A DNA stretch of 64,000 nucleotides from Gammaproteobacteria bacterium (GCA_046347035.1 JAXMGY010000001.1:18485-82484); one strand, 5' to 3'; counted from the stretch's first letter, positions 10,931 through 53,990 are shown. Numbers and translations are program-made. Notes: a model not told the origin generated them from the letters alone.

Positions 10931-11099
10931 GCTTGTCTTTGTTTGCATTAAATGACTCGCTGGGAGTGATAGCTATCTTCATGGCCGTTCCCTCTCCCCT
11001 CGCGGCAGAGGGTCAGGGTGAGAGGGAATGTTGGCACCAACGCCGACTATTCCCTTGCGTCTCCTGCCGTGTGCGAGAAATAGAGAATAAGGAGGATGC

Positions 11100-12122: not shown

Positions 12123-13063
12123 ACGTTGAGATGAGCTCCGTCAGCGCTGCAACGGCTACACCGGGTTGGCGTGCGCTTTCCATCGCCTTCTATCGTCGGC
12201 CAAAGTTGTTGTTGCTTTTGTTGTTAGCGCCACCTGTGCTATGGCTCGGGGTCGTATATCTCGGTTCGCTGCTCGCGCTATTGGCGCAAAGCTTCTTTTA
12301 CATAGACGAGTTTTCTGGACGTATTGTTCGCGAGTTCTCCTTGCGCACCTATCAACAGCTTTTTTCCGCCGCCAATGTCGACATCATCCTGCGCACGGTG
12401 TTGATGGCCACCATGGTTATCTGACCGACGCAATTATTGCGTTTCCGATTGCGCTTATGTTGCACGCTATGCGACGGACGTGCGCGCCATCTTTTTATAT
12501 CGGTGTGATGCTGCCACTGTGGTCGAGTTATTTGGTGAAGGTATACGCGTGGAAACTTCTGCTTGCGAAGGAAGGCGCGATCAGCTGGCTGTTCGCGAAG
12601 CTGAACTGGGCTGGTTACTCGATGCGCTGTTGGCGTTGCCGGTGATTGGCGGTAATTCCTTGTCGACGTCGTACATCGGACGTACCTGGTGTTTTGTTAT
12701 ATCTGGCTGCCCTTCATGATTTTGCCAATCCAGGCCGCGCTTGAGCGCGTGCCTAAAACATTTATTGAAGCATCCTCGGATCTGGGTGCGCGACCAGCGG
12801 AAACGTTTCGCAATGTCGTCCTGCCGCTGGCCCTACCCGGGGTTATCGCCGGATCAATTTTCACTTTCTCACTGACGCTCGGCGACTACATCATTCCGCA
12901 AATCGTCGGCTCGTCGCGCTATTTCATCGGTCAGGCGGTGTACCAGCATCAGGGTACAGCGGGCAACATTCCGCTGGCGGCAGCCTTGTCGGTCGTGCCC
13001 ATCGTGATCATGATGATCTACCTCAGCATCGCCAAGAAGAAAGGCGCCTTCGATGCGCTCTGA
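12119..13063 (+). pseudogene. ABC transporter permease (PotH/YdcU-like), with at least two frameshifts
   Basis: Three consecutive ORFs in different frames (12119..12424, 12166..12645, 12689..13063) tile one permease. The EAA-loop '[21 protein letters not shown]' is present. Confidence 0.65.
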
Positions 13064-16505: not shown

Positions 16506-16777
16506 TCAAAATATTTAACAAGCGCTGTAAGGCTGTAGAACTACAGCGCAAGCTATTGATCGCAACGTTAAAGGATAGATATGCGCTTGGGATGAGAATC
16601 AACAGCGCTCGTTGTAGTAAAAAATTCACTTGACGAATTCGTGACGAAGTGAACTAAACTAAATGCCATGGAACGATGGCGGCTATAGCTGAGATCGTTA
16701 CTGGAAACGCTTGTCGCTAAACAGCGATTGAGCGTTCCCTTAAAGGTGCAACGGAATTTGTCCTAAGGGGAATGGAC

Positions 16778-17461
16778 ATGGGAGAGGTGTTGCGCATATG
16801 GATTTCAGAGGGACGACGGCTTCGCGTTACACTCGCGCTGCTGTTCTGCTTGCATTTTCTCCTCTACTCCCCGCTTCTCTTTGCAGGCTCCGGCTCGTTG
16901 CTGGATTGCACGCAACATCGCTGTGATCTTCTGAAAGATGGTGCGTATCAAGAATTTATTATCGGTACCGTTGCAGCTGTTGGCACCGATGATGACACGC
17001 GCGGCCTCGTCAAATGGGCCAAATTAAATGGCTTTTGGTCGTCCGCACTTGACGATACCGAAGCTTATGTTCGCACCGCTACTGTCGTTCTAATCAACGT
17101 CGCTGGCATCACGCCCACCGCTCCCATTCCGGTTCTCGTCACCAAGACGGAGTTGGGTGCCGCCACCCTCAAGCCGGGCGATTTGCTTAGGTATGGACCA
17201 CATATTGAAAGGTACAAGCATTGGCGTGGCGATCCGGCCGAAACGGGAATCTACAACGAGCTTACCGGCTACTACATCATTCTGTGTGGCCACCAAAATA
17301 TGGACTGTTTTAAAGACTACGTGCAGGGAGCCTTTAATCGCCAAAGTGGCCGACAAATTGAAATCTTTGGCAAGCAAGAAATCGCAAATGGCGTGGTGAT
17401 TGACACTAAACGGCTACAGCCCGTGTCAAATCCAAGTGTCGAGGAAAGTGAATCAAAGTAA
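16778..17461 (+). CDS. Hypothetical secreted/membrane-anchored protein immediately upstream of the RHS toxin gene
   Basis: N-terminal hydrophobic segment 'LRVTLALLFCLHFLLYSPLLFAG'. AAGGGGA RBS 6 nt before the ATG at 16778. A Cys-Gly-His triad-like stretch 'YYIILCGHQNMDC'. No family recognised. Confidence 0.5.
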   Translation: MGEVLRIWISEGRRLRVTLALLFCLHFLLYSPLLFAGSGSLLDCTQHRCDLLKDGAYQEFIIGTVAAVGTDDDTRGLVKWAKLNGFWSSALDDTEAYVRTATVVLINVAGITPTAPIPVLVTKTELGAATLKPGDLLRYGPHIERYKHWRGDPAETGIYNELTGYYIILCGHQNMDCFKDYVQGAFNRQSGRQIEIFGKQEIANGVVIDTKRLQPVSNPSVEESESK

Positions 17462-17569: not shown

Positions 17570-20500
17570 ATGAAAAAGGTGTCTTGGACGATATGGGCTG
17601 TCGTTGTAGTTGTGGTGACACTGGCATTTGAAAAAGCAGGGGCGACCCCAGTACCGGAAAATGGACTGTCAGATCTCATTACAGCCTTGCAGCTAACAGA
17701 ACCGGTCGTCGCGACGACTAAATCAACCGACCAAGACCGAGCCGAAATCGAACGTCTCATCGAGCGCACCGCTTCGATGTCTCGTGCGGAGAAAGCTGAA
17801 GCGATTGCCGAGTTTATCGATCATCACCCCCACTCGCCTTTTCGAGTTGCACTCGAAGCTAATCTGGGCTTTCAGTACCTGCATGACGGATATGTTTCCA
17901 GGGCGATCACGTCGCTCAGCGCTGCCTGGGAGCACGGGCGAGAGGCGCGCGGATTAGCCATTGAAGCGCTTGTAGACAAAGCTGTTGGTGACCTGCTTGT
18001 CACCCACGCACGTCTGGGGCACAGCAATGAGACCGAACGTTTACTGACTGAGATTTCCGGGCGACCCATCATGGGTAGCGCAGATGTCGCAGTCAGCACC
18101 GCTCGGGACGGCCTGTGGCAAATCCAACATGAACCGGAACAGGCACTGCGCTGTGGGGCTATGGCATTGAACGCACTGCTGCAGTCGCGGCACAGCGACG
18201 CGGCTCTGCGATCCGAATTGATGAACATCGCGGTCGATAAACAAGGCATGAGCCTCGCGCAGATTGCTAAACTGGCTGAGCACCACGGCGTTACCTTGAA
18301 AGCGGTCAGGTCCCTGCAACGCGATGCTGTTGTACCGGTGCCCGCGATTGTGCATTGGAATGTGGGCCACTACGCGGCGGTGCTTGCGAAAAACGGCAAG
18401 GAATATCTAGTCGATGACCCGGTATTCGGCGGACGTAAATGGATTTCGTCGGATGCACTGCAAGCAGAGACAAGCGGACACTTCCTTGTTCTTGCCGATG
18501 CGCCGGCTACAGATTGGGCCGAGCTTGCGACAAAAGAGGCTGCAAACATTCGTGGTGCGGGATACACAAACACCGACGATCCTCTCTACACCCGCCCGCA
18601 GGATCACAAGGAGTGCGACCAACCTTGCGGCAGCAGCAACCCTCCTGGGGGAATGCCGGTCCCTGCTGTGCACTCGATGCTGGTGAGCCTGAACATTGTC
18701 GACCGACCCGTGAGTTACACCCCGCCCAAGGGGACCGACGTCGACGTGGTGCTGACCTACAACCAGAAAGAATCAGACCTTCAACCAGCCGTATTCACGT
18801 ACTCAAACTTTGGTCCCAAATGGAACTTCAACTGGCTAAGTTTCATACAGGATGACCCAAACTCGCCCGGCAACAGTGTTATGCGTTACGTCGCTGGTGG
18901 TGGTGGGCAACGTTATTCCGGCTTCAATTCGTCGACGGGTGCCTTTACACCCGAGAAGCGCAGCGGCGCCCAGTTGGTGAAGACGGCTGCGAATACCTAC
19001 GAATTGAGGGATGCCGACGGTTCTAAGGAAGTGTTCGGATTTTCCGACGGAAGCACGGGTTATCCTCGCAAGATATTCATGACACAACGTGTTGACGCAG
19101 CCGGTAATGCCGTGACGCTGCAGTACGATGCACAACGTCGCCTCACCGGAATCGTCGATGCCATCGGGCAGACCACGACACTGCAATACACCCACACCAA
19201 TCCGTTACTGATAACAGCGATAACCGATCCTTTTGGTCGAAAAGCGACTGTTACGTACGATACGTCGGGAAGGCTGTCTTCGATCAAGGACGCGATCAAT
19301 CTAACGTCCTCGTTTACCTACGATACAGGTACATTCATCACCGCGATGACTACCCCGTACGGAACCACCCAATTCGCTTACGGGGAGGGAGATAACCGCC
19401 AGCGATGGCTTGAGATCACCGATGCGCTCGGTAAGAAGTCGCGCGTCGAGTTCCGGCACAACGCACCATATCCCGCTTTTGATCAGACGCCACCGACAAA
19501 CGACTTTCGAACCACGTGGTTTCACTCACGGAATACCTACTATTGGGATCAAACCGCGATGGCATTAGCGCCAGGTGACTATACCAAGGCCCGCATCAAG
19601 CACTGGGTGCATCGAGGAGACAAAGACAGCGAAACCGACGGTGTTCTTGAGTCGGTAAAATATCCACTCGAAAACCAGATTTGGTACAAGTACCCTGGTC
19701 AAGGTGACACAGCCTTCAGTGGCAGCTTTGACAAACCAATTCTGATTGCGCAGACGCAACCTGACGGCACGGCAAAACTGGAGAGATATGAATACAACCA
19801 GTTCGGCAAAGTGACCCGCTACATCAACCCACTCGGCCACGAGTACGTCTACGAATATGACACTAACCAAATCGATTTGCTGCGGATCAAGCGACGCAGG
19901 GTAAGCACTGACACGCTCGATACCTTTGCGCAATACACTTACAACACGCAGCACCGCGTTCTCACATATACCGATGCTGCAGGCGGTATCACGAGATATA
20001 CGTACAACACCGCTGGGCAGCTTCTCTCTCAGATCACGCCGGCAAACGAGACGACCAGTTACGCTTATGACGCCAAGGGCTATCTCACCAGCATCACCAA
20101 TCCCCGCGCGCAGACAGCGGTAACCTATACATACGATGCCGTCGGCCGCGTCAACAAGCGCACTGATTCGCAAGGATCTATCCAATATGCCTATGACAAT
20201 TTGGATCGGCTGACGACAACGACATACAGCGACACGACGACGGAAACGAACACATACGACAAGCTGGACGTGAGCGTTGCAAAAGATCGCAACGGAAAGC
20301 TTACCCGCTATGCATACGATGCGGTTCGCAATCTCGTCTCAGTCACCGATCCGCTTAATCAGGTGGTGCAATACACCTACTTCGAGAACCGTTTACCCAA
20401 GACAGTTAAGGATGCACGCAATAATGTGACAAGCTGGACGCGTGATATTCAGGGGCGAGTACTCAGCGAAAGCAGTCCTGATCGCGGCGCTACCACATAT

Positions 20501-22378
20501 ACATACGATGTGGTCGGCAATCTCGCAACGACGACGGACGCAAGAGGAAACACCACAACCTATACTAGGGACAAACTCAGACGTCTCACCAAAGAGCTGT
20601 ACAGCAATGGCGAAACGTCAGATTTTGCTTACGACGGCACAGTCAACGGCGAGCTAGGGACTCTTACGAACGCAACCAAGGTCGGTCCGTTCAAGTATGA
20701 TAGCCGCGGTTGGTTGGTTGAGCAGGGCGGTGGTAGTACGCAAACCGAAACCGTCTCCGTCGTTGGAGTAATCTTAATTGCTGGGCGACCTTTCCTGACT
20801 CGAGTCCCGCAGGTGGTTGTAGCGACACCTCCACGCACATTGTACAGCTACACATCCGCTGGACGGTTAGCATCAATCACGTATCCGTCTGGCAAAGTTG
20901 TTACTTACAACTACAGCGGTGGAATGGTATCCGACGTGTCAGTCAATGGAACCACAATTCTAAGTAATGTTACCCATACTCCCATGGAGCCCATCACGGG
21001 TTGGACGTGGGGTAACGGTACGGTGCACCCGAGAACGCTTGATGCGGACTATCATGTGAGAAGTTACAAGATTGGATCAGCCACACGAGACCTCACCTAT
21101 GATTCCGAAGGGAATCTACTCATCGTTGTCGATAGCGCGACGTCCAGTCTTGGTCCCACCTATACAAACGCAGATGATTTGGGCAGGGTGATCAGTGAAA
21201 CGAATCTTGCCAAGAACCTGGCTTGGACGTACGACTCAAATGGCAATCGAATTTCAACACGAATTGGACTTGGAAATACGCCCTACAGCCTTACGTACAG
21301 CGGTTCGAGCAACCGCTTGCTCTCGCTCTCTGGTCCCACAGCACGTACCTTTACGTATGATGCGGCGGGCAATATTACTTCAAACGGAAGCTTGATATAT
21401 CAGTATAGCGCACGTGGCAGATTAGCCGCGGTGAATCCACAGGCGCTTACCAGTTGGTCTAACTATCGGTACAACGCACTGGGCCAGCTGCGTGCCCGCG
21501 ATATGGACGCGGATACGAATCGTCGATTTGCCTACGACCCGGCCGGTCACCTGCTTGGTGAGTATTCGTCTTTGAGTGGTGGCTTCAGCCAGGAGACGGT
21601 ATGGCTAGGCGACATCCCGGTGGCGGTGCTGTCGGGCACCAACACCATTCAGTACATCCACGCCGACCATCTGAACACGCCGCGGGCGCTCACGGACACG
21701 ACGGGCAAGGTGCTGTGGCGCTGGGACTCCAACGCTTTTGGCGAGGGATTGCCGAATGAGGATGTGGACGGCGACGGGGTGAAGGTGACCTACAACCTGC
21801 GCTTCCCTGGTCAGTACTACGACAAGGTCACGGGCAAGCACTACAATTACTTCCGCGACTACGATCCGGAAACCGGGCGCTACCTGGAGTCCGATCCGAT
21901 TGGACTCGCGGGGGGCTTGAATACTTACGCCTATGTCGGTGCGAATCCGCTGACTAGATTTGATCCGTTTGGGTTGGCTTGGAACTGTACTTATGTTCAA
22001 TCAACCGGCCGGTTGTATTGCGTCGACGATGAAACCGGGAAATCTGTTTATGAGCGCTGCTATTCCGGCTCAGAGAGTCGAGGTGGGAAAAACGATCCCG
22101 ATAAGGAATCAGAGAGAAGAACCGGACCGATACCCCGTGGAGGTTGGGACATAGGCGGCTATGATAACTCCAAAGGCCCCCGAACCATCGACCTCTCTCC
22201 CAGATCGGGTACGGAAACATACGGTCGTGATCTGTTCCGAATACACGGTGACAGTCGCAGGCACCCTGGCAACGCGTCGGAAGGGTGTATTATCTGCGAC
22301 CTTTTAACACGTGAAAAGCTAACCAATGGATCAGGCGGTACTGTAACTGTCATCCGCGCAGAACCATTTGCAAACTAG
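17570..22378 (+). CDS. RHS-repeat polymorphic toxin with Sec signal peptide, C39-like peptidase domain, YD/RHS repeats, RHS core (ending ...DPIGLAGGLNTYAYVGANPLTRFDPFGL) and a C-terminal L,D-transpeptidase-like toxin tip
   Basis: Intact 1602-aa ORF. Signal peptide 'MKKVSWTIWAVVVVVVTLAFEKAGA'. C39-like motifs 'ALRCGAMALNALL' (Cys195) and 'VHWNVGHYAAVL' (His267). Many YD-type repeats ('YTYD', 'YAYD', 'TYTYD'). Core 'RFPGQYYDKVTGKHYNYFRDYDPETGRYLESDPIGL'. Tip motif 'RIHGDSRRHPGNASEGCII'. Confidence 0.9.
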   Translation: MKKVSWTIWAVVVVVVTLAFEKAGATPVPENGLSDLITALQLTEPVVATTKSTDQDRAEIERLIERTASMSRAEKAEAIAEFIDHHPHSPFRVALEANLGFQYLHDGYVSRAITSLSAAWEHGREARGLAIEALVDKAVGDLLVTHARLGHSNETERLLTEISGRPIMGSADVAVSTARDGLWQIQHEPEQALRCGAMALNALLQSRHSDAALRSELMNIAVDKQGMSLAQIAKLAEHHGVTLKAVRSLQRDAVVPVPAIVHWNVGHYAAVLAKNGKEYLVDDPVFGGRKWISSDALQAETSGHFLVLADAPATDWAELATKEAANIRGAGYTNTDDPLYTRPQDHKECDQPCGSSNPPGGMPVPAVHSMLVSLNIVDRPVSYTPPKGTDVDVVLTYNQKESDLQPAVFTYSNFGPKWNFNWLSFIQDDPNSPGNSVMRYVAGGGGQRYSGFNSSTGAFTPEKRSGAQLVKTAANTYELRDADGSKEVFGFSDGSTGYPRKIFMTQRVDAAGNAVTLQYDAQRRLTGIVDAIGQTTTLQYTHTNPLLITAITDPFGRKATVTYDTSGRLSSIKDAINLTSSFTYDTGTFITAMTTPYGTTQFAYGEGDNRQRWLEITDALGKKSRVEFRHNAPYPAFDQTPPTNDFRTTWFHSRNTYYWDQTAMALAPGDYTKARIKHWVHRGDKDSETDGVLESVKYPLENQIWYKYPGQGDTAFSGSFDKPILIAQTQPDGTAKLERYEYNQFGKVTRYINPLGHEYVYEYDTNQIDLLRIKRRRVSTDTLDTFAQYTYNTQHRVLTYTDAAGGITRYTYNTAGQLLSQITPANETTSYAYDAKGYLTSITNPRAQTAVTYTYDAVGRVNKRTDSQGSIQYAYDNLDRLTTTTYSDTTTETNTYDKLDVSVAKDRNGKLTRYAYDAVRNLVSVTDPLNQVVQYTYFENRLPKTVKDARNNVTSWTRDIQGRVLSESSPDRGATTYTYDVVGNLATTTDARGNTTTYTRDKLRRLTKELYSNGETSDFAYDGTVNGELGTLTNATKVGPFKYDSRGWLVEQGGGSTQTETVSVVGVILIAGRPFLTRVPQVVVATPPRTLYSYTSAGRLASITYPSGKVVTYNYSGGMVSDVSVNGTTILSNVTHTPMEPITGWTWGNGTVHPRTLDADYHVRSYKIGSATRDLTYDSEGNLLIVVDSATSSLGPTYTNADDLGRVISETNLAKNLAWTYDSNGNRISTRIGLGNTPYSLTYSGSSNRLLSLSGPTARTFTYDAAGNITSNGSLIYQYSARGRLAAVNPQALTSWSNYRYNALGQLRARDMDADTNRRFAYDPAGHLLGEYSSLSGGFSQETVWLGDIPVAVLSGTNTIQYIHADHLNTPRALTDTTGKVLWRWDSNAFGEGLPNEDVDGDGVKVTYNLRFPGQYYDKVTGKHYNYFRDYDPETGRYLESDPIGLAGGLNTYAYVGANPLTRFDPFGLAWNCTYVQSTGRLYCVDDETGKSVYERCYSGSESRGGKNDPDKESERRTGPIPRGGWDIGGYDNSKGPRTIDLSPRSGTETYGRDLFRIHGDSRRHPGNASEGCIICDLLTREKLTNGSGGTVTVIRAEPFAN

Positions 22379-23060
22379 AGAGCATGCAGCTATGCGTTCC
22401 GAGATAAGACAAGCCAAAATCTTTCGTTTGTTTTTGGTGATATGTTGTTTCTGTTGTTGGCCGTTGACTCGCTGCTTGGCGAGCAGCAGCCAGATTGCGT
22501 TACCTGAATATGTCGATGACATATTTGGGTGGCACGCTGGTACGACAACATTAACTAATGTGCAAGGACTGATGGGGCAGTCACCATTTCATGTTCGCGG
22601 AGATGCTGCGTCGTCAGAAACATTCATTTGTTATGTCATCAGAGACACCAACCAGTCTTGGATAGTCACGTTTACGTCTGACAATGAACTTGCAGACGTG
22701 TCGTCTCACGAATTAACCGGAATTGAGCTGACTCGTCTCGATGCAGGGTTGCATGCTAGCAACGATTGCACGGTCGCACTGGATAATCGTGACGTAATGA
22801 CCCTTGTAAGGATGAGTGAGACTGATTTTATGGCGAAGTTTTCTCCACCGGTTGTTCATAAAGGCGAATACGGCGGCTCTATCTGCGTCGAAAATCCAAT
22901 TGATCGGAAAGATCCTGCATACCAGTACTGGCGGGGGAAGAAGAACTGTTTCCCGGAGGGGAAGGAACCATATGTCAATGTGTGCACGACATGGGGCGCG
23001 CAGTTTCGAGATAAAGTTCTCACGAAGTTGACGGTGAAAAGGGTTTCTAGTGTGTGTTAA
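22368..23060 (+). CDS. Putative periplasmic immunity protein cognate to the RHS toxin tip
   Basis: Overlaps the RHS stop, suggesting translational coupling. Signal peptide 'IFRLFLVICCFCCWPLTRCLASS'. Alternative start Met at 22392. No known family. Its position directly after the toxin tip follows the usual RHS toxin/immunity arrangement. Confidence 0.55.
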   Translation: MQTREHAAMRSEIRQAKIFRLFLVICCFCCWPLTRCLASSSQIALPEYVDDIFGWHAGTTTLTNVQGLMGQSPFHVRGDAASSETFICYVIRDTNQSWIVTFTSDNELADVSSHELTGIELTRLDAGLHASNDCTVALDNRDVMTLVRMSETDFMAKFSPPVVHKGEYGGSICVENPIDRKDPAYQYWRGKKNCFPEGKEPYVNVCTTWGAQFRDKVLTKLTVKRVSSVC

Positions 23061-23099
23061 TGTTCTTGGAGCAATTTGGAGAGGCAGCACAAAAACAAT

Positions 23100-23320
23100 C
23101 GAGGACGTAGGGCGGACGGCATCAATACATATACGTACAATGGCCGTGGCCGGCTCTACACGGCACAAGATATTTCGATCACGCCCCGTGGGTTAGACGG
23201 TTGGTCGTACTATCGCTACGACGGATTAGGTCTGATGTCGGGGCGCGATATTAACGGAGAGAGCCGACGCTTTACTTACGACCCGGCCGGACATTTGCTT
23301 GCTGAGGCAGGAAATAGGGG
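23100..23320 (+). pseudogene. Degenerate RHS fragment (displaced cassette remnant), truncated at the junction element
   Basis: Reads 'NTYTYNGRGRLYTAQDISITPRGLDGWSYYRYDGLG...RRFTYDPAGHLLAEAGN'. Parallel to the start of the next cassette but stops at 23311. Confidence 0.5.
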
Positions 23321-23378
23321 TCGGAGTGAATTAATTTGGTGCATGGAAACGGTCGCGCCAATTCAAACACTTCGATCC
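23311..23378 (+). repeat. Conserved ~70-bp junction element, copy 1, at an RHS cassette boundary
   Basis: GAAATAGGGGTCGGAGTGAATTAATTTGGTGCA..GCGCCAATTCAAACACTTCGATCCC. About 80% identical to 24966..25036. Contains an imperfect hairpin (GAATTaatTTGG / CCAATTC). Confidence 0.6.
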
Positions 23379-24235
23379 CGTTACTCTTCGCTGTACAGGG
23401 CAACGCATTCAATCCGCGTGGTTTGGATGGGTGGGTGTACTATCGTTACGACGGATTGGGGCGCATGCGTGGACGAGATGTTAATGGAGAGGTAAACCGA
23501 CGCTTTGCCTACGATCCGGCCGGACATCTGCTCGCTGATGCAGGCCAGGAGACGGTGTGGCTGGGCGACATTCCGGTGGCGGTGCTGTCGGGCACCAACA
23601 CCATCCAGTACGTCCACGCCGACTATCTGAATACGCCGCGTGTGATCACGGACATGACGGGCAAGGTGCTGTGGCGGTGGGACTCCAACGCTTTTGGAGA
23701 GGGATTGCCGAACGAGGATGTGGACGGCGATGGCGTGAAGGTGACCTACAACCTGCGCTTTCCTGGGCAGTACTACGACAAGGTTACCGGCAAGCACTAC
23801 AATTACTTCCGCGACTACGATCCGGAAACCGGGCGCTACCTGGAGTCCGATCCGATTGGGTTGGCGGGCGGCATTAACACATATGCGTATGTGGGCGGCA
23901 ATCCACTGGCATTCATAGATCCAACCGGTGAAATAAGGATCCCCAGGAAATGGCTAGAGTGTTTAGTATTGCTGGGCTGCTTGCATGGGAAGCCAGAAGA
24001 ACCTGGTTCTACCCGTCCGGTTCGGCCTGAAGTTCCGACACAAGTTAAGCCGCCTGTGCCCGTATCCGGCTCAAAAGATCCCGATAAGGACGACTGCGAA
24101 TCGCCGGATAGTGAGCCGGCACCTAAAACGACTCCGACACCGATGACCCCCATATCTGAGCCGTCCGTTCCTTGGTGGTTGCCGCTGATACCACTAATAC
24201 CGTTCCCTGGGAATCCGATTTATGGTGGACTCTGA
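23336..24235 (+). CDS. Orphan RHS C-terminal cassette: RHS core with an alternative, Pro-rich C-terminal tip; no RHS body
   Basis: A 315-bp segment (23545..23859) is about 93% identical to RHS 21589..21903. Core 'DPIGLAGGINTYAYVGGNPLAFIDPTGE', then the novel tip '...KDPDKDDCESPDSEPAPKTTPTPMTPISEPSVPWWLPLIPLIPFPGNPIYGGL'. The apparent TTG start lies inside the junction element. Confidence 0.6.
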   Translation: MVHGNGRANSNTSIPLLFAVQGNAFNPRGLDGWVYYRYDGLGRMRGRDVNGEVNRRFAYDPAGHLLADAGQETVWLGDIPVAVLSGTNTIQYVHADYLNTPRVITDMTGKVLWRWDSNAFGEGLPNEDVDGDGVKVTYNLRFPGQYYDKVTGKHYNYFRDYDPETGRYLESDPIGLAGGINTYAYVGGNPLAFIDPTGEIRIPRKWLECLVLLGCLHGKPEEPGSTRPVRPEVPTQVKPPVPVSGSKDPDKDDCESPDSEPAPKTTPTPMTPISEPSVPWWLPLIPLIPFPGNPIYGGL

Positions 24236-24292
24236 CCGTTCAGCGACACGTGGAGGATGCCTTGGGTACGAAAGAGATTCTGGGAGGTAGCT

Positions 24293-24886
24293 ATGAATAT
24301 CCGTTTACGAGCCGAAAGTGACGACAAGTATTTGGGGGATATTTCCGATGCGCTAAAACTGCAGGATCGTGATCCTGTGCGAGTATTTCAGGAACTCCTG
24401 CGCCTTGCTCAGAATGGCTCGATAAACAGCATGCTTGAGCTGGGCTGGGCTTATAAGAAAGGATTGGGAACAAAAACGGACACTGATGAGGCAGCCAGGT
24501 GGTTTCGACGAGCATATGACGGTGGGGCTACACAGGCAGCTCTGTATCTTGGAGGCATTTATTGGCGCATGGAGAAGTATGCGGATGCCCGTGATATATT
24601 TGCTAAAGGCGGCGAAGACGGAGATCCAGTGTGTCTCTATTGGCTTGGGCGAATGTATCAGGACGGCATTGCTGTCGAGAAAGCTCCCGACAAAGCCTAC
24701 GACCTATACGTGCAGGCCTCAGCAGGCGGTAGTTTGATCGCAAGAGCTGCTGCTGCGCGACTTCTAATGTCCGGGAGGTGTGGTGCCTCGCGTATTCTCG
24801 TTGGAGTGTACCAGTACGTCATAACGATGTTTTCTGCACTAGTATCATGCTTCCGAAAGGAGACCAATCACAGCCTTAGGCATTAA
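24293..24886 (+). CDS. Sel1/TPR-like repeat protein, putative immunity protein for the orphan cassette
   Basis: Sel1-like repeats ('LGWAYKKGLGTKTDTDEAARWFRRAYDGG', 'LGRMYQDGIAVEKAPDKAYDLY'). GGGAGG RBS 6 nt before the ATG at 24293. Sits directly 3' of the toxin tip. Confidence 0.55.
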   Translation: MNIRLRAESDDKYLGDISDALKLQDRDPVRVFQELLRLAQNGSINSMLELGWAYKKGLGTKTDTDEAARWFRRAYDGGATQAALYLGGIYWRMEKYADARDIFAKGGEDGDPVCLYWLGRMYQDGIAVEKAPDKAYDLYVQASAGGSLIARAAAARLLMSGRCGASRILVGVYQYVITMFSALVSCFRKETNHSLRH

Positions 24887-24929
24887 CGCAAATTGAAAAT
24901 GGGTCGTTGTTGTTTATCTTTCCGCCGCC

Positions 24930-25036
24930 CGCACGTACACATACGATGCGGCCGGCAACATCACAGGAATAAGGTGTCGGAGTGAATTACTTTGGTGCAC
25001 GCGAAGCGGTAGCGCCAATTCGATTTACTTCGACCC
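24930..25036 (+). repeat. Third RHS remnant ('RTYTYDAAGNITGIR') fused to junction element copy 2 (24966..25036)
   Basis: GGAATAAGGTGTCGGAGTGAATTACTTTGGTGCA..GCGCCAATTCGATTTACTTCGACCCC. The YD-repeat remnant compares with 'TFTYDAAGNITSNGS' at RHS ~21340. Confidence 0.55.
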
Positions 25037-25331
25037 CATCTCCTCGGTGTCACGTGCTATCGTTGCCATCATGACCGCGGTCAAGCAAGCCGAACTGGCT
25101 GGGTTCGATATAGGTCTGATTGATGAGAGCAAGCGTTGTTCCTACGAGCAACGCGCGCTTCAACATCAAGAAGCGCTGAGTCTGGCGTTAGAACTTGAGA
25201 GAGTGGGGCAGCAGCTGCGTAATGGATCTCAACCGACTGCTGTTACGCCTGAGCGAAGCTGAGGTGAGTTAACGGGTTGGATGAATTTGCTTTGTCGAAT
25301 GTCACTTTTCGCCTTGCTGCTTCAACATCCG

Positions 25332-25625
25332 CTACGTTCGTGTGGAGCCATAAGTTGGGCGTCGGCGATCATGTTTGACCACCAGAACGAGGATGCCTTC
25401 AGTCACTACCCTGTATACGACGGTATAGGGAAAGCCAGAGGTCGGGAAGCCACGGCGACCGCGAGATCGGGGTGTACCAATGCTTGGGTTTTGAAGTAGA
25501 AGTTTTGCAACGCGCTCAAACTCCGCGATGAATTTGTCAGCGAGTGCTGTTGAAGCTTGGGATTCCTAGAACGCGGCTGCCTCGGCAACGTCTCGCGCTG
25601 CGCCTGGATGTAGAACGACTCTCAT
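25332..25625 (-). pseudogene. parE: ParE/RelE-family toxin inactivated by an in-frame amber stop at codon 20
   Basis: My own translation of the reverse complement gives MRVVLHPGAARDVAEAAAF*ESQASTALADKFIAEFERVAKLLLQNPSIGTPRSRGRRGFPTSGFPYTVVYRVVTEGILVLVVKHDRRRPTYGSTRT*. ATG at 25625-25623. Its start overlaps the stop of the antitoxin (ATGA). The TAG at 25568-25566 is where Tyr is expected (FYE). Confidence 0.6.
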
Positions 25626-25849
25626 CCAGGGAATCGCGCCCGGAGTCGTGCCATGGCCCCCTCAAGTGGTACGGCTACAACTTGTCCAGATTGAAGCTCT
25701 GCCTCACGCGATTCGGCGAGTTGCTCCCACTCTTCTTCCGCCGCAACATCCACATCCAGACTCGCGACGAGATGTTCAAGCAGGCGTGTGCGATCGGCTT
25801 TCGAAAGACTGAGAATTTGAGCTTGCAGGATTTCAAGGTTGGTACTCAT
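25622..25849 (-). CDS. Addiction-module antitoxin component (TIGR02574-like), partner of the ParE pseudogene
   Basis: 'MSTNLEILQAQILSLSKADRTRLLEHLVASLD...EEEWEQLAESREAELQSGQV' is the typical small acidic antidote. Start at the internal Met (25849) of track ORF 25622..25897. Confidence 0.6.
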   Translation of the reverse strand: MSTNLEILQAQILSLSKADRTRLLEHLVASLDVDVAAEEEWEQLAESREAELQSGQVVAVPLEGAMARLRARFPG

Positions 25850-26508
25850 AGGTTCTCTGGTCTCCAAGCTGCACAGTGCATGGCAAGCTTGCCACATCTG
25901 GAAGAACGGAGTCAGAGTTATTTACCTTGCCAAACGCAGAAAAAGCAAAGGGGCCGCGAGGGCCTTTGCGTTACAACCTAGCGAACCGATTAACGGTTGC
26001 TGATGTACATCGTGACTTCGAAGCCAAAACGGACGTCAGCGAAAGCAGGAGTTTCCAAGCCATGTTCGTATCCTCTAATAAGTATGTGAATTCGGGGTAA
26101 TGAACGACTACTAATCTATATAGAGCAGGGCCCGTGCCACGATCTGCCCGCACCAGCAAGATCGGCTTTTATGTTAATAATAACAATAGGTTATGTGCAC
26201 GTGTCCAAGATTGTGTGGTAGCAGCAGTCACCCGATCCAGGGCTCAAAATTGATGTAGAAAACCAACCAGTTGGTTGCCAGTAACCAATTGCACCAGCCG
26301 GTTCTTCGTTCCAATTCATCCCGAAGTCAGCCTGCCAGCCGCGAAACGAGGGCACTCTGAAAGCCCGCAATCACTATTAACGGCGTGACTCGCGCCGTTT
26401 CCCGCCGTGTTTTCGACGCCGAAAAGTGTGTCGTCATCCGCAGGTTGCGCGCCATCCAGCAAATAGTATGAGACTACAAAAGTGTCACCAAGCGGTGGAG
26501 GCAGGAGC

Positions 26509-27859
26509 ATGAAAACAACACTTCGATGTGTATCGATATTGGCTGGGCTGGTCATCACAAGTGGCGCTCACGCCGCCGTGCAACTGGAACGCCTTACTAT
26601 GGGCGCCAACAGCCTGGTTATTCCACCGCCATCGGCAACCAACTTTTCATGCTGGAGCAGGGTGGCAATATCAAGCTTTACGACATGCAGACCAAGACCA
26701 CCACGAATTTTCTGAATGCCAACCAGCTCGGCAGTACTTTCGTGACCGGCGGTGAAACTGGTTTACTTGGCATCGCCTTCGATCCCGACTACGCGAAGAA
26801 CGGTTACTTTTACGTCAACACCACGCATCGGGATGCGAATTACAATGGTAATCGAATTTATGGCGAGGTCACTCGCTACACTCGATCTGCCACTGATCCC
26901 GCAAAGCCGACGCGAGTTCGGCGATGTCAATGATCAAGATTCCGAAGAATGAGATTAAAGTGAACGGTGTTCCCACTGACTTCACCAATCACAACGCCGG
27001 CTGGATTGGATTTGGCAACGACAAGATGCTGTACATCTCCACCGGTGATGGCGGCAGTGGCGGCGATCCCACTGGCAATGCGCAAAATGGCCAGAGCCTG
27101 CTCGGCAAAATCCTCCGTCTTGATGTAAGCAATCCAACGATCAGCTACGCCATTCCCAAGGACAATCCCTTTGCCAATGGGAATGGCGGTGCCAACGCCA
27201 ATTTCCTGGATGAAATTTGGGCCTACGGACTTCGCAACCCTTTCCGTGCTGGCTTCGATAGTAAGACTGGCAATTTATTCATTGGCGATGTCGGGCAAGG
27301 TGCCTGGGAGGAAGTCGATCGCGCGATGGCTGGCGTGGGCGGCATAAATTTTGGTTGGAACCTGAGAGAGGGAGCGCACAACTATGGCGGCTTTAATGGC
27401 AGTACGGCCGGCCTGACTGATCCAATTTTCAACTACGACCATTCCCAAGGTCAGTCTGTCATTGGCGGTACCGTATTCCACGGTGGCGGTGAACTCGATG
27501 GCAAGTACCTGTTCAGCGATTTTTACAACGGCGGCAAAATTTGGGCACTGGATCCAAACTGCACCGCGAACTGTCAGATGACGAACGTGATTTTCACCAC
27601 CACAGCTGGAACGATAGGTGCCATATCGAGTTTCACCACCGATGCCGCTGGCAACATGTACATCACGGACTACAACGGTGCGGTTTATCGGCTCTCGGCG
27701 GTATCGCCGGCGCCAGTTCCCGCACCGGCTGCCGCGTGGCTGTTGGGATCCGGATTGCTGGGACTGACGCGCGCGCGCCGCAGGCAGTGGCAGATCAAAT
27801 TGATTCAAGCCAGCGCTGAGCGCCGTCATTCCCGCGCAGCCTGCCCCGGCAGGTTGTAA
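26509..27859 (+). pseudogene. Soluble glucose/sorbosone dehydrogenase-like beta-propeller protein with C-terminal PEP-CTERM sorting signal; two frameshifts
   Basis: Signal peptide 'MKTTLRCVSILAGLVITSGAHAA'. Propeller motifs 'GLLGIAFDPDYAKNGYFYV' and 'WAYGLRNPFRAGFD' spread over three frames (26482.., 26526.., 26924..). C-terminus 'VSPAPVPAPAAAWLLGSGLLGLTRARRR' is the PEP-CTERM pattern. Confidence 0.6.
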
Positions 27860-27965
27860 GCCGGGAGCGGGAATCCAGTTGAAAAATTACTTTGACTGGG
27901 TCCCCGCCTTCGCGGGGACGACGGAAGTAGCGCTGCGGGGATCGTCGCGAAGTGGTGTCCATTGC
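27835..27965 (+). repeat. MITE-like palindromic repeat, copy D (expanded first hairpin) plus partial 3' extension module
   Basis: GTCATTCCCGCGCAGCCTGCCCCGGCAGGTTGTAAGCCGGGAGCGGGAATCCAGTTgaaaaattactttgACTGGGTCCCCGCCTTCGCGGGGACGACGG, followed by ..GTCGCGAAGTGG.. related to the extensions of copies G and H. Confidence 0.7.
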
Positions 27966-29470: not shown

Positions 29471-29546
29471 GTCATTCCCACGTACGCGGGAATCCAGTGA
29501 AAAGCGAATTATCTATTGCTGGGTCGCCGCTTTCGCGGGGACGACG
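29471..29546 (+). repeat. MITE-like palindromic repeat, copy E
   Basis: GTCATTCCCACGTACGCGGGAATCCAGTGaaaagcgaattatctattgCTGGGTCGCCGCTTTCGCGGGGACGACG. Confidence 0.75.
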
Positions 29547-29609
29547 CAGATTGCTTTGTCTGCGCGGACGAAGTCGCGCTCTCGTGGAATCTTTAGTAAA
29601 GCGTTCTAG

Positions 29610-32508
29610 CTAGAGTGCGTGTGCCTCGAGGCCCAGGTCGCGATGCTTATCAAACGTCTCGCGATTGACGATGACTGCCGTGCTCGCCGTCTCAGGGCGT
29701 AGGTATTCGCGGCCAATACGTTGCAGATCAGCGATGGTGGTTGATAACACGCGACTGCGGAATTGCCGCCGGAATTCCGGTGTACGTCCATGCAGGGTCT
29801 GGAAGTAAGCCTGGATCGCCTCACCCGATGGTGAGCTCGGCTGATCGATGCTTTGAATGATGCCAAGCACCGCTTCCTCAAGTTCGCGATCCACGTGCGC
29901 GCCTTGTAACCATTCAAGCGCGGCGTCGAAATCCTTCAACGTGCCTTCCAGGCGCGGATCGCGATAAGAGAAGAAACGGAAGCTTCCCGAATCGGAGTCG
30001 TAACGCGCGCCGCTGCCGTAGGCGCCGCCTTGCTCGCGGATGGCGCGATGTAGGTAACCATTGTGCAGGAACTTGCCAAGCACGCTGAATACGGGCGCGT
30101 CAGGATGACTGGCGGGAACCGCGGCATAGGCCTTGGCGCAGAAATTGACCTGCGTGTTGGTGATCCAGGCGTCATGCACACGTTGTGTCGCAGACGTCCA
30201 GCCAAACGTGGATTCGGAACGGTTCGCGCTGTTTCGCGCCAGTGTGGCAGACAGACTTTGCTCCAGCGCGGCATGCTCGCTTTCCTGACTGACGACCAAC
30301 AGCCGTGACGGTTGTTGTGCCATCTTCTCGCGCATGGTCCGCAGTTGTTCTGCAAAATGCTTGCAGCTTGACCTGATCGTTTAATGCAGCGTCGAGCCGC
30401 TTGAGATTGGCGATGGACAGCGGCCCGTCCCAAAGGTTGTCGAGCTGACCGACAGTGCCCATGCCCGCGGCGGCGGCCAGCATGGCCAAGGAATGGCCAC
30501 GATCAGTAATGGACGATTCCTGTGCCGCGCGCAATTGCGCGATCACCTCGCGCAACCGCTGTGGCTCGTCGAAATGAACTGTCTGGATGGTATCAACCAT
30601 CAACTGCGCCAATGCGCGTTGATCACGCGCCAGCGACTTGCCTGCCAAGGCGAGATAGCCGCTTACCGTGCCAGTATCGGCAATGCTGGCGCGCAGCGTG
30701 GCATTGGCAGCGAGACTGCCGAGGCGCGCCTGCAACGCCTGGGTATCAAGGTAGCTGCGCCCGCCACTACCCACTTCAGTGAGCAACGTGTAAAACAACA
30801 CCAGATGTTCAGTTTCTTCGCGCGTCAGCGCCGGCAAGTCGGCTACCCATTGCGCATAGATCAAACCGTTAGTGCCTGCGCTATACCAACTGACGGGATG
30901 CTCGTTGATGCGGCTATTGCGCGCGAGTGGAATGCGCAGATCCTTGGGCACATCGGCGATACCGACCTTCGGCAGCAGATCAGGATTGTTACCATGCCGT
31001 TGCCTGTCATCGAGGGTGCGTGCCTGCTCGAGAACCTTCGCTCGCCGTGCTTTGTCCATTTCCTTGGCGATGGCATCTAACTGCTTACGTTCTTCAATCT
31101 CACGGCGCTTGGCAAGTTCGGTATCCGGACTCATCACCAGCCGCACGCGATGTGGATTGTCCAGCAGGCGGCGCACTTGGCGTTTGATGAATTCGGGATC
31201 TTGAATTTCAAGGCGCAATTCGGCGATGGCGGCGTCAATGTCGAGGAATGCAAACGGATCGCCGCCGTGCGTCGTGGCGCCCAACACGCGGGTGAGCAAT
31301 TGCAAGCCGTGCGGGAAGTGTCCACCGCCGAGTTCGCGTTGCGCGATTTCCAATTGCGTGAGCACGGCCTCCAGTGTTTCAACCGGAACACCGTCGCGCG
31401 CAATTGTTTCCAGGACGTCGAAAACGAGACGCTCCACCGCATCGGCATGTTCGCTTCTGCTGCCCTCAAGACCGCAAATGAACATGGCTTCGCGCGCCGA
31501 GTCATCCAGCCCACAGAGTTCCAGCGGTGCGGTGCCGAGATCGGTGGTCTCCAAGGCTTGCCGCAGTGGCGAGCCGCTGTGCTGCAGCAATACATTTGTC
31601 AGCAATAGATCATGGAGGTGATGACGCGCATCGCCGGTATGACCCAGCAACCAACCGATCGCAATGTAAGTCGCGTTGGTATCTTCACCGCCTTCATGAG
31701 TGTATGAACTCTCGACGCGCAGAGGCGTACCGTAGCGGCGCTCGTCATGCAGATGCAGATCCAGAGTTCGCCGATCAAAATGCCTTAACGCCCAATCCTC
31801 AAACCTCGCCTGGTGGTCGCGTACGGGAAAATCACCATAGGTCATGAACGTGGCGTTCGATGGATGGTAATGGCTGCGATGAAACGACTGCAATTGCTCG
31901 TAGCTCAACGCTGGAATCCTGGCCGGATCGCCGCCGCTGTTGAAGTGGTATGTGGTGGTCGGAAACAGCAGGGCCTGCAATTGCATTTGCACCTGTGCAA
32001 TCGGTGAACTCATCGCTCCCTTCATCTCGTTGTAGACGACGCCGCGATAGACCAGCGGTGTCGATACATCCTGCGGATTGGCAAATTCGATGCGATGTCC
32101 TTCCTGCGCAAAATCCAGTTGATCGAGTTTGGGAAAGAAGACCGCGTCCAGATAAACACCTAACAGATTTTCGAAGTCCTTGCGATTCTGAGTCGCGAAC
32201 GGATATGCCGTGGCATCGCTGCTGGTGAAAGCGTTCATGAAAGTATTGAGTGAACGCCGCAACATCATGAAGAACGGATCGCGCACCGGATATTTCCTAC
32301 TGCCGCATAGCACGGTGTGTTCGAGAATATGTGCAACGCCGGTGTCGTCCATAGGCACGGTGGGGAAGGCCACCATGAAGCAATTGTTGCTGTCCTCCGC
32401 GACCAGATGATAATGCGTGGCGCCGGTTTTGAAGTGCCGATACTGTTGCATCTCCACGTTCAAGGTGTCGATACGCTGGGTTCTGACCAATTCGAAAGTC
32501 GAAGCCAT
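29610..32508 (-). pseudogene. M16-family zinc metallopeptidase (pitrilysin/PreP-like, ~965 aa); frameshift near 30330-30400
   Basis: The 778-aa ORF 30172..32508 has the inverted zinc motif 'HILEHTVLCGS'. ORF 29610..30335 supplies the C-terminal M16C region. The tail of the 778-aa ORF is out-of-frame garbage. Confidence 0.8.
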
Positions 32509-53952: not shown

Positions 53953-53990
53953 ATGGCGGTCGAAATAGGTTCCGGTTGGCGCGACTTGCC

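What the first reader, a model, noticed from the sequence alone, without database searches (positions are those of the whole stretch)
21589..24235. Orphan-cassette array with a 315-bp recombination repeat and a novel Pro-rich toxin tip
Nucleotides 21589-21903 (RHS core) and 23545-23859 are about 93% identical direct repeats. The downstream copy continues into a different C-terminal tip, which is Pro-rich with the hydrophobic tail 'WWLPLIPLIPFPGNPIYGGL'. That tip is followed by a Sel1-repeat gene (24293..24886), a likely immunity. This is the classic substrate for toxin-tip switching by homologous recombination. The second tip has no recognisable family and a possible membrane-inserting C-terminus.
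Basis: seen in the sequence. Interest (0 to 1): 0.6.

Follow-up and report, generated by a model that had tools for sequence, protein, structure and literature searches.

The report
Rhs orphan toxin cassette, modular tip
A bacterial Rhs toxin gene is followed by a spare, promoterless toxin-end cassette that could be swapped in by recombination; this arrangement is well known, but the spare tip ends in a rare, undescribed conserved tail and its toxicity is unproven.

Summary
Window 21589-21903 and 23545-23859 are direct repeats, 295/315 identical (93.7%), in the same orientation and reading frame. A crossover would give an intact 1569-aa chimeric Rhs. The locus is an ordinary main-rhs plus orphan arrangement, but only one orphan is intact. 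It lies between two dead Rhs stubs, each abutting a REP-like hairpin.

Tip 2 (101 aa) has no Pfam family. It is not wholly familyless, because its last ~50 residues (DDCESPD, a Pro-rich linker, then PWWLPLIPLIPFPGNPIYGGL at the C-terminus) form a rare module. That module also sits behind at least five other small head types in Rhs fragments from metagenomes. In those relatives the downstream immunity-like gene tracks the head and not the tail, so the tail is an exchangeable accessory.

Tip 2's own head has no homologue among 1.84 billion representatives. It is predicted as one short helix followed by coil. Its tail is not helix-compatible or hydrophobic enough for a classical membrane span.

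The Sel1 gene is real, cytoplasmic and correctly placed. Only position and a Klebsiella precedent support it as the immunity gene.

Verdict: a known kind of locus with an unusual tip architecture. Moderate interest.

The parts
17570..22378 (+). Main rhs gene (1602 aa): Sec-type signal peptide, Peptidase_C39-like domain (aa 194-311), YD/RHS repeats, RHS core, tip 1
   Evidence: ORF. Pfam RHS_repeat 6e-61, Peptidase_C39 5e-13, RHS 3e-7. NCBIfam Rhs_assc_core 2.8e-21. Hydrophobic N-terminus.
21589..21903 (+). Repeat copy 1, in the core-end coding region of the main rhs
   Evidence: 295/315 identical to 23545-23859, same frame.
21977..22378 (+). Tip 1: Tlde1-like (L,D-transpeptidase-fold) candidate toxin, after the DPFGL motif
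   Evidence: Pfam Tlde1_dom E 1.7e-5, 25.6 bits, below the 30.1 cut-off. The motif RIHGD...SEGCIIC is visible in the sequence. No PDB sequence relative.
22392..23060 (+). Candidate immunity 1 (222 aa from ATG) with an N-terminal hydrophobic signal-like segment
   Evidence: ORF. Hydropathy. No Pfam, NCBIfam or PADLOC match. Assigned by position only.
23076..23310 (+). Stub A: dead Rhs YD-repeat fragment ending at ...YDPAGHLLAEAG, paralogous to the 5' part of orphan B
   Evidence: Pfam RHS_repeat 6.6e-6. 73% identical to 23393-23548. The reading frame runs into the hairpin and stops.
23317..23379 (+). REP-like hairpin 1 (conserved element about 23311-23390)
   Evidence: RNA fold -35.5 kcal/mol, z -3.9. 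Second copy at 24973-25036. The left arm recurs after stop codons and next to an ORF whose N-terminus resembles, from memory and without a profile test, an IS200/RAYT-type transposase in unrelated metagenome contigs.
23397..24235 (+). Orphan rhs-CT (orphan B): last ~178 aa of an Rhs core plus tip 2; no delivery region and no obvious own promoter
   Evidence: NCBIfam Rhs_assc_core 9e-24. ORF 23336-24235. Promoter scan at chance level.
23545..23859 (+). Repeat copy 2
23930..24082 (+). Tip 2 head: EIRIPRKWLECLVLLGCLHGKPEEPG... then a Pro-rich stretch. It is unique, with one predicted helix.
   Evidence: No homologue except itself (P0006) in 1.84 billion representatives. Head-family HMM -0.9 bits in frame and negative in the other frames. 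hhalign probability 0.4%. AF2 predicts a helix at residues 6-19 only.
24083..24235 (+). Tip 2 shared module: DDCESPD, Pro-rich linker, invariant tail PWWLPLIPLIPFPGNPIYGGL, stop codon
   Evidence: Shared with P0001, P0007-10, P0014, P0152, P0155-158, L004, L013 and L014. The last 13 aa are identical to P0001's, with third-codon-position differences in 9 of those 13 codons.
24293..24886 (+). Sel1-repeat protein (197 aa): no signal peptide, weakly hydrophobic C-terminal segment (aa 166-184). Candidate immunity 2.
   Evidence: Pfam Sel1 1.6e-12. RBS and start. 100% identical to a protein annotated as hypothetical in a Gammaproteobacteria MAG, with no close homologues. Hydropathy.
24925..24967 (+). 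Stub C: ~40-nt YD-repeat remnant (TYDAAGNITG)
   Evidence: Read from the sequence.
24973..25036 (+). REP-like hairpin 2
   Evidence: RNA fold -37.9 kcal/mol, z -3.8. Pattern match.

Best explanation
Shown by sequence. A Sec-exported Rhs protein with an N-terminal C39-like peptidase domain and a Tlde1-like tip, plus its signal-bearing candidate immunity gene, is followed by a decaying trail of Rhs remnants. The trail reads: stub A, REP-like hairpin, one intact orphan rhs-CT with tip 2, a Sel1 gene, stub C, REP-like hairpin. The 315-nt block is co-oriented and in frame, and it contains perfect runs of up to 71 nt. It is also a mosaic island: 93.7% identical, against about 60% immediately upstream.

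Inferred. RecA-type crossover, or duplication followed by crossover as in Salmonella LT2, can fuse tip 2 to the full-length Rhs. That would delete 1956 bp carrying tip 1, immunity 1 and stub A. The sharp identity boundary suggests such exchange or gene conversion has already happened.

Shown by comparison. Tip 2 belongs to a rare modular class of small Rhs tips (about 92-125 aa). The class is built as variable head, acidic/Pro-rich linker, then an invariant C-terminal tail P-W-(W)-x-x-(I/L)-P-x-(I/L)-P-(F/I)-P-G-N-P-(I/L/V)-Y-G-G-x. In relatives the downstream gene tracks the head whatever the tail.

Inferred. The head is therefore the toxic, immunity-specifying part. The tail is an exchangeable accessory, most plausibly a delivery or membrane-association aid, and not itself the toxin.

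Status of tip 2. Its head is reduced to one short Cys-containing helix plus a Pro-rich stretch with no homologue. I rate the tip as more likely an attenuated or relic cargo (about 55%) than an active toxin (about 40%). Sel1 would then be either its cytoplasmic immunity or a retained orphan immunity gene.
For: - Repeat geometry and the in-frame chimera.
- Mosaic boundary.
- Rhs core in the orphan.
- Precedent for main/orphan recombination: PMC3967940.
- Stubs and hairpins.
- Tail class.
- Purifying selection on the tail peptide. The last 13 aa are identical to P0001's, with third-position differences in 9 of those 13 codons.
- Immunity follows the head. Five tips with the His-rich head carry three different tail types, and all are followed by homologous ~125-aa 'G.LHD' proteins (BLASTP E 1e-16 to 3e-3). 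Same-tail tips with other heads have unrelated neighbours.
- Tip 2's head is absent from that head family.
- No globular fold is predicted (pTM 0.23, one helix).
- No hydrophobic span in tip 2.
- Sequence verified by an independent assembly.
Against: - The tip 2 ORF is fully open while both other frames carry about six stops.
- All nine invariant tail positions are intact.
- Its length (101 aa) is within the class range.
- An intact, well-placed gene with a strong RBS follows it.

All of these fit a still-functional pair. The tail class is small (about 15 sequences). Every example seen is an orphan or a contig fragment, so the accessory role of the tail is inferred from covariation alone. No expression, recombination or toxicity data exist.
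Confidence: 0.55

Rival explanations
1. Tip 2 and the Sel1 protein are an active, novel toxin-immunity pair. The short Cys-containing helix and/or the Pro-rich peptide is the toxic moiety, for example a small membrane-active or target-binding peptide. It would be helped by the shared tail and neutralised in the cytoplasm by the Sel1 repeats.
For: - Open 101-codon frame, with stops in the other frames.
- Tail and CxxPD motif fully conserved.
- Other class members also have very small heads with their own downstream genes, for example P0152 (92-aa tip) and L014 (95-aa tip).
- Sel1 is intact, has an RBS and lies 57 nt downstream.
- A Sel1-repeat protein is a proven immunity protein in Klebsiella (PMC7108748).
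- Both tip 2's head and the Sel1 protein are singletons, as expected for a co-evolved pair from an under-sampled lineage.
Against: - The head is 23% proline, low in complexity, and predicted as one helix plus coil.
- It has no homologue anywhere.
- The cassette sits in a visibly decaying array.
- No class relative uses a Sel1 neighbour.
Confidence: 0.3
2. One reading: the hydrophobic C-terminal tail WWLPLIPLIPFPGNPIYGGL inserts into the target membrane and is itself the toxic principle.
For: - The tail is rich in W, L, I and F and is under purifying selection.
- In the wider His-rich-head family, the equivalent position often carries true transmembrane-like or Gly-zipper segments.
Against: - There are five prolines within the first 12 residues of the 20-residue tail (six in all). 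No 19-aa window reaches KD 1.4, and AF2 predicts coil.
- The same tail follows at least six different heads, whose downstream genes differ. Tips with the same head and different tails share one immunity family.
- Those immunity candidates are soluble and have no signal peptide, which does not fit a membrane-targeting toxin.
Confidence: 0.1
3. The repeat is passive paralogy only. The array is dead DNA and no tip switching occurs. The 93.7% identity simply reflects strong constraint on the Rhs core end.
For: - Stubs and REP-like insertions show decay.
- Only one genome and one arrangement is seen, and the independent contig L003 shows the same order.
- Many genes in the window look frameshifted.
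Against: - 22 of the 29 differing codons are synonymous. Even so, overall nucleotide identity is 93.7%, next to about 60% in the equally coding upstream core. This argues for recent exchange and against protein-level constraint alone.
- Perfect runs of 71, 32 and 26 nt are adequate for RecA.
- The frame is preserved.
Confidence: 0.05

Closest known systems
Salmonella Typhimurium LT2 rhs-main (STM0291) / rhs-CT-orphan (STM0292) locus (Koskiniemi et al. 2014, PMC3967940)
   Same: A full-length rhs with toxin tip and immunity gene is followed by a co-oriented promoterless orphan. The orphan shares a core-end homology block, then carries a different tip and its own downstream gene. Recombination there creates a chimeric Rhs that deploys the orphan tip.
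   Different: - The block here is shorter and slightly more diverged (315 nt at 93.7% vs 522 bp at 95%).
- The Rhs here has a Sec signal and a C39-like domain, and no T6SS gene lies in the 64-kb window.
- The orphan is embedded between dead stubs and REP-like hairpins.
- No experimental data exist for this locus.
Orphan cdiA-CT/cdiI and rhs-CT/rhsI modules of polymorphic toxin systems (Poole et al. 2011, PMC3150448; Zhang et al. 2012, PMC3482391)
   Same: Tandem toxin-tip and immunity cassettes lie downstream of a main gene. They carry partial core homology and serve as a reservoir for tip replacement.
   Different: In those systems the extreme C-terminus is the variable toxin. Here the extreme C-terminus (linker plus tail) is the conserved part, and the variable part lies between the core and the tail.
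Unnamed His-rich Rhs tip family (...LKLPxDPSGLPxxWxxDPSHRDPNG...DFHxGRPGxPGWxGKDHWHHNGG...PGDExP) with ~125-aa 'G.LHD' immunity-like neighbours
   Same: Tip 2 shares the entry motif (I-R/K-I/L-P after DPxG), the C-x-x-P-D motif, the Pro-rich linker and, with one sub-group, the identical tail.
   Different: Tip 2 lacks the 71-position head domain: -0.9 bits, hhalign 0.4%, no hidden frame. Its neighbour is a Sel1 protein and not a G.LHD protein. The family itself has no Pfam or PDB match.
Klebsiella pneumoniae VgrG4 / Sel1E toxin-immunity pair (Storey et al. 2020, PMC7108748)
   Same: A Sel1-repeat protein without a lipoprotein signal, encoded just downstream of the toxin, acts as immunity.
   Different: The toxin is unrelated (VgrG DUF2345 domain, T6SS). 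The window's Sel1 protein has no close homologue (best 42% over 30% of its length). Its function was not tested.
REP elements mobilised by RAYT (IS200/IS605-like Y1 transposases)
   Same: A ~65-nt imperfect palindrome with a GGGGTCGGAGTG... arm. It sits just after coding sequence. The same arm is found next to an ORF starting MPRKPRMYLPGVPAHLVQR in a metagenome contig.
   Different: - There are only two copies in this window, both inside the Rhs trail.
- No RAYT gene was seen in the window.
- The ORF's assignment as a RAYT/IS200-type transposase rests on my recollection of that family's N-terminus and was not profile-tested.

Membership tests
Rhs orphan toxin cassette (rhs-CT orphan) | Lies downstream of, and co-oriented with, a full-length rhs, and lacks the N-terminal delivery region | tested here: met
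   Main gene 17570-22378. The orphan's Rhs homology starts about 23397, with only ~178 aa of core.
Rhs orphan toxin cassette (rhs-CT orphan) | Shares an in-frame block of high nucleotide identity with the core end of the main gene | tested here: met
   295/315 nt identical, offset 1956 = 3 x 652, chimera open.
Rhs orphan toxin cassette (rhs-CT orphan) | Core-end demarcation motif (DPxGL...DPxG-x) followed by a divergent C-terminal tip | tested here: met
   The orphan reads ...SDPIGLAGGINTYAYVGGNPLAFIDPTGE, then a tip unrelated to tip 1.
Rhs orphan toxin cassette (rhs-CT orphan) | The tip is toxic and the adjacent gene gives specific immunity | not testable with these tools
   Needs expression and competition assays.
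Rhs orphan toxin cassette (rhs-CT orphan) | Recombinant main::orphan junction occurs in the population | not tested
The only independent contig (L003) starts inside the repeat and shows the parental order downstream.
His-rich (DHWH) Rhs tip family | 71-position head domain with invariant H-W-H and other conserved residues | tested here: not met
   HMM of 131 members vs tip 2: -0.9 bits, E 0.2. Three-frame test negative. hhalign probability 0.4%.
His-rich (DHWH) Rhs tip family | Downstream ~125-aa G.LHD immunity-like gene | tested here: not met
   The window has a Sel1 gene. BLASTP finds no similarity to the G.LHD proteins.
Tail-bearing small Rhs tips (provisional class defined here) | Extreme C-terminus P-W...(I/L)P(F/I)PGNP(I/L/V)YGG-x, preceded by an acidic/Pro-rich linker | tested here: met
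   All nine invariant positions are present. The regex census gives 8 of 154 fetched proteins, and more came.
Sel1-repeat immunity proteins | Sel1/SLR repeats, encoded immediately downstream of the toxin, same strand | tested here: met
   Pfam Sel1 1.6e-12 with two stretches. 57-nt gap and an RBS.
Sel1-repeat immunity proteins | Binds and neutralises the cognate toxin | not testable with these tools
   Precedent only (PMC7108748).
Membrane-inserting (TM/pore-forming) toxin tail | Hydrophobic, helix-compatible segment of about 19+ residues | tested here: not met
   No 19-aa window with KD >= 1.4. The 20-residue tail holds six prolines, five of them within its first 12 residues. AF2 predicts coil with pLDDT 42-58.
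Tlde1 L,D-transpeptidase-like effector (tip 1) | Tlde1 domain with an H...S/T-x-G-C catalytic motif | tested here: inconclusive
   Pfam 25.6 bits, below the 30.1 cut-off. The motif HGD...SEGC is visible. No PDB sequence match.
Integron attC / Tn3-type inverted repeat (considered for the junction hairpin) | attC R'/R'' core sites (GTTRRRY / RYYYAAC), or a 38-bp Tn3-type IR | tested here: not met
   No GTTRRRY at the 3' end of either copy (read). Tn3 resemblance is limited to the GGGGTC start. The element instead recurs as a REP-like arm elsewhere.

The most novel reading that the evidence does not exclude
The conserved module (C-x-x-P-D, Pro-rich linker, PWW..LIPFPGNP(I/L)YGG-x at the C-terminus) is an undescribed, exchangeable C-terminal delivery or translocation device for very small Rhs-borne toxins. 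This would invert the usual polymorphic-toxin layout, in which the extreme C-terminus is the variable part. Under this reading, tip 2 with Sel1 is a new mini-toxin/immunity pair whose active part is a ~20-aa helix or a Pro-rich peptide.
Probability: 0.2. Interest if true: 0.6.

Novelty: new variant of a known kind. Interest (0 to 1): 0.4.

Why it matters
The locus adds nothing new to the recombination logic of Rhs orphans, which is textbook. What could matter is the architecture found while tracing tip 2. In this class of small Rhs tips, the variable toxin-specifying head is followed by a conserved linker and tail, and the tail is swapped among unrelated heads. If the tail proves to be a delivery or membrane-translocation aid, it would be a new functional part of polymorphic toxins. 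It would also be a handle for finding very small toxins that domain databases miss. The His-rich head family with its G.LHD immunity family (191 or more representative clusters, no Pfam or PDB match) is itself an uncharacterised toxin-immunity family worth testing.

Tried and rejected
1. Hidden frameshifted toxin head in tip 2. The other two frames carry about six stops each, and the head HMM is negative in all three frames. Rejected.
2. Assembly error in tip 2. An independent Logan contig is 100% identical. Rejected.
3. Tip 2 as a diverged His-rich head. HMM and hhalign are both negative. Rejected.
4. The tail conserved as a DNA recombination site. Its differences from L001 are third-position changes in 9 of the last 13 codons, which points to peptide-level selection. 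Rejected.
5. The junction element as Rhs coding sequence, an integron attC site or a Tn3 IR. It is a stable hairpin, and its arm recurs in unrelated contigs after stop codons and next to an ORF with a RAYT-like N-terminus. I treat it as REP-like.
6. Pro-rich region arising from tandem-repeat slippage. TRF finds nothing.
7. Known-family searches that found nothing for tip 2, immunity 1 or the upstream 229-aa ORF: Pfam, NCBIfam, PADLOC and Rfam.
8. PDB sequence searches for the head family and for tip 1 found nothing.
9. A literature search for the motif strings returned 0 papers.
10. The promoter/terminator scan was at chance level.
11. The genome-contig scan for the tail confirmed only one locus among species representatives (L004). 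It did not recover the source genome.
12. A look-up of the exact orphan protein found no record.
13. A T6SS context was sought in the window and none was found.

Full report
**1. Observation**

The repeat is real. The repeat finder gives 21588-21887 vs 23544-23843 at 93% identity with a spacing of 1956 nt, and MAFFT shows the same block. The longest perfect runs are 71, 32 and 26 nt. The offset is a multiple of three and both copies are read in the same frame. Of the 29 differing codons, 22 are synonymous. A simulated crossover gives a 1569-aa ORF ending ...DPTGEIRIP...FPGNPIYGGL. It is the only repeat of this size in the window.

The block has sharp edges. Immediately upstream, orphan and main are only 59.6% identical and differ by a 21-nt indel. 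Identity is lost about 50 nt after 21903. That mosaic pattern is what past exchange or gene conversion would leave. An independent Logan assembly (L003) is 100% identical to 23830-25832, so the tip 2/Sel1 sequence is not an assembly artefact.

**2. Anatomy of the locus**

- **Main gene.** The main gene (17570-22378, 1602 aa) has a hydrophobic signal-like N-terminus, a Peptidase_C39 match (aa 194-311, E 5e-13), YD/RHS repeats and the Rhs core.
- **Tip 1.** Its tip has a sub-threshold Tlde1 match (25.6 vs 30.1 bits) and a visible HG...SxGC motif.
- **Candidate immunity 1.** The next ORF (22392-23060) has a signal-like N-terminus and no family match. It is the positional candidate for immunity 1.
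- **Secretion context.** No T6SS genes occur in the 64-kb window. The neighbours are polyamine and phosphate transport genes, ppk, phoR and the like. This looks like a Sec-dependent Rhs.

Downstream there is a trail of remnants and not a tidy array:

- Stub A (23076-23310) is a YD-repeat fragment. It is 73% identical to the 5' part of the orphan and ends at YDPAGHLLAEAG.
- An ~80-nt element follows.
- The intact orphan comes next (Rhs homology from about 23397, tip 2 at 23930-24235).
- The Sel1 gene is at 24293-24886.
- A ~40-nt YD remnant (TYDAAGNITG, about 24925-24967) follows.
- A second copy of the ~80-nt element closes the trail.

Both copies of the element fold into long hairpins (-35.5 and -37.9 kcal/mol, z about -3.9). 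Their left arm, GGGGTCGGAGTGAATTAnTTTGGTGCA, occurs in unrelated metagenome contigs directly after stop codons. In one case it is a perfect palindrome. In another it lies just upstream of an ORF starting MPRKPRMYLPGVPAHLVQR, which I recognise from memory as the N-terminus of IS200/RAYT-type transposases. I therefore read the element as a REP-like insertion marking non-functional DNA, not as part of Rhs.

Further downstream are a 71-aa ORF with no match and, on the other strand, an Unstab_antitox antitoxin gene.

**3. What tip 2 is**

The tip is 101 aa and 23% proline. The word-index search found one relative, P0001, an orphan Rhs fragment whose last 13 residues are identical to those of tip 2. 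At the DNA level, 9 of those 13 codons differ at the third position. The peptide, and not the DNA, is therefore under selection.

An exhaustive HMMER search gave 191 representatives. These define a widespread unnamed Rhs tip family. It has a ~71-residue His-rich head (…DPSHRDPNG…DFHxGRPGxPGWxGKDHWHHNGG…PGDExP), then an acidic/Pro-rich linker, then a variable hydrophobic C-terminal tail. It has no Pfam or PDB sequence match. One tail type is PWW..(I/L)P(F/I)PGNP(I/L/V)YGG-x.

Tip 2 keeps the entry motif (IRIP), the C-x-x-P-D motif, the linker and that tail. It lacks the head:

- A 131-sequence HMM scores -0.9 bits against it.
- hhalign gives 0.4% probability.
- The other two frames hide nothing.

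Its own ~50-aa head has no homologue other than itself (P0006) among 1.84 billion representatives. AF2 predicts a single helix (RKWLECLVLLGCLH) followed by coil, with pTM 0.23.

The same tail follows at least five other heads:

- the His-rich head;
- a GHWDxDxGQG head (L004, P0157);
- P0152's KTYGLPKAFWNWYHR head;
- a Cys-rich head (L014);
- P0155/L013.

Every example is an orphan or a contig fragment. The tail is rare, with one confirmed locus among 185,579 species representatives.

**4. Head or tail: which is the toxin?**

I compared the genes immediately downstream. Five His-rich-head tips carry three different tail types: the FPGNP tail in L001, L006 and L007; a SEGS..PPRN tail in L015; and a TM-like tail in L016. 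All five are followed by mutually homologous ~125-aa proteins with a G.LHD motif (E 1e-16 to 3e-3). Tips with the FPGNP tail but other heads (L004, L005, L014 and the window) have unrelated neighbours.

Immunity therefore follows the head, and the tail is an exchangeable accessory. The immunity-like proteins are soluble and lack signal peptides. That suggests a cytoplasmic site of action and makes a delivery or translocation role for the linker and tail plausible, though this is inference.

The tail itself is a poor membrane span. It holds six prolines in 20 residues, five of them within the first 12. No 19-residue window reaches KD 1.4, and AF2 predicts coil.

**5. Sel1**

The gene is intact, starts at 24293 with GGGAGG 5 nt upstream, and matches Sel1 repeats. 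It has no signal peptide and a weakly hydrophobic C-terminal segment. It is identical to a protein annotated as hypothetical in a Gammaproteobacteria MAG and has no close homologue. A Sel1-repeat immunity protein is documented in Klebsiella (Sel1E against VgrG4, PMC7108748). Here the assignment rests on position and that precedent only.

**6. Mechanism and likelihoods**

- That this is a genuine, recombination-competent orphan cassette of the Salmonella LT2 type (PMC3967940) I hold at about 0.9.
- That the tail is an accessory module and not the toxin I hold at about 0.7.
- Whether tip 2 is still a toxin is open. For activity: an open frame, an intact tail module, a class-typical length and an intact neighbour. 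Against: a unique, low-complexity, essentially unstructured head in a decaying trail. I put about 40% on an active pair and about 55% on an attenuated or relic cargo whose neighbour is a retained immunity gene.

**7. Novelty and score**

The main/orphan arrangement is known. New tips are expected in polymorphic toxins. The unusual feature is the layout, with a conserved extreme C-terminus behind variable heads. I found no description of it: a search for the motif strings returned 0 papers, and there is no Pfam entry. I rate the finding as a new variant of a known kind, with interest 0.4.

Noticed in passing
L001, L006, L007, L015, L016 (metagenome loci); proteins P0007-P0154: There is a widespread, unnamed Rhs tip family with a ~71-aa His-rich head (DPSHRDPNG...DHWHHNGG). 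It has 191 representative clusters at E<=1e-3. It is consistently followed by a homologous ~125-aa 'G.LHD' protein. Neither has a Pfam match, and the head has no PDB sequence relative; the G.LHD proteins were not searched against the PDB. This looks like an uncharacterised toxin-immunity family.
   Followed up: partly
window 23311-23390 and 24966-25045; L008-L011: Two copies of a ~65-80-nt hairpin element sit inside the Rhs trail. The left arm is GGGGTCGGAGTGAATTAnTTTGGTGCA. The same arm occurs in unrelated metagenome contigs after stop codons and upstream of an ORF starting MPRKPRMYLPGVPAHLVQR. I take that ORF to be an IS200/RAYT-type transposase from memory of its N-terminus only; it was not profile-tested. 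The element is REP-like.
   Followed up: partly
window 18149-18502 (aa 194-311 of the main Rhs): The Rhs has a Sec-type signal peptide and a Peptidase_C39-like domain near its N-terminus. Candidate catalytic motifs (RCGAMAL; HWNVGHY) are visible. C39 domains normally cleave double-glycine leaders. Its role in an Rhs protein is unclear, and the tip 2 tail ends in YGG-L.
   Followed up: no
window 4385-4443, 5676-5768, 10848-10941, 27882-27934, 29505-29557, 53985-54072, 58312-58405: A second repeat family is dispersed through the window. It has the units CGTCATTCCCGCGCAAGCGGGAATCCAG... and ...GGGTCCCCGCCTxCGCGGGGACGACGG, in direct and inverted copies. It is probably another REP/BIME-type family.
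   Followed up: no
window 8446-9524; 12166-13063; 26526-27859; 29610-32508: Several housekeeping genes appear split by frameshifts. They are an aldehyde dehydrogenase-like gene (by eye), an ABC permease (by eye), a GSDH-family gene (Pfam match in two adjacent ORFs) and an M16-type peptidase (by eye). These are either pseudogenes or indel errors in the MAG assembly. The tip 2/Sel1 stretch itself was verified by an independent contig.
   Followed up: partly
window 25622-25897 (- strand): An Unstab_antitox (putative addiction-module) antitoxin gene lies just beyond the Rhs trail (Pfam 2.4e-10). No intact partner toxin ORF is evident next to it.
   Followed up: no
window 16772-17461: A 229-aa ORF with a signal-like N-terminus lies directly upstream of the Rhs gene, on the same strand. 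It has no match in Pfam, NCBIfam or PADLOC. It may be an accessory protein of this Sec-type Rhs.
   Followed up: no
P0011, P0013, P0017, P0118, P0125, P0129, P0131, P0133; and P0029, P0031, P0049, P0053, P0060, P0064, P0077, P0092, P0109, P0110, P0112: Two further recurrent C-terminal tail types follow the His-rich head. They are ...GLTGxALxxYLxxSEGSRxFPPRNLxPxP and ...YRCxRMIPSLxPPLWxTIPxNxAxP. Exchangeable conserved tails therefore seem to be a general feature of this tip family.
   Followed up: no
window 27700-27859: The GSDH-family protein ends in ...PAPAAAWLLGSGLLGLTRARRRQ. This resembles a PEP-CTERM-type sorting signal, recognised from memory and not tested.
   Followed up: no
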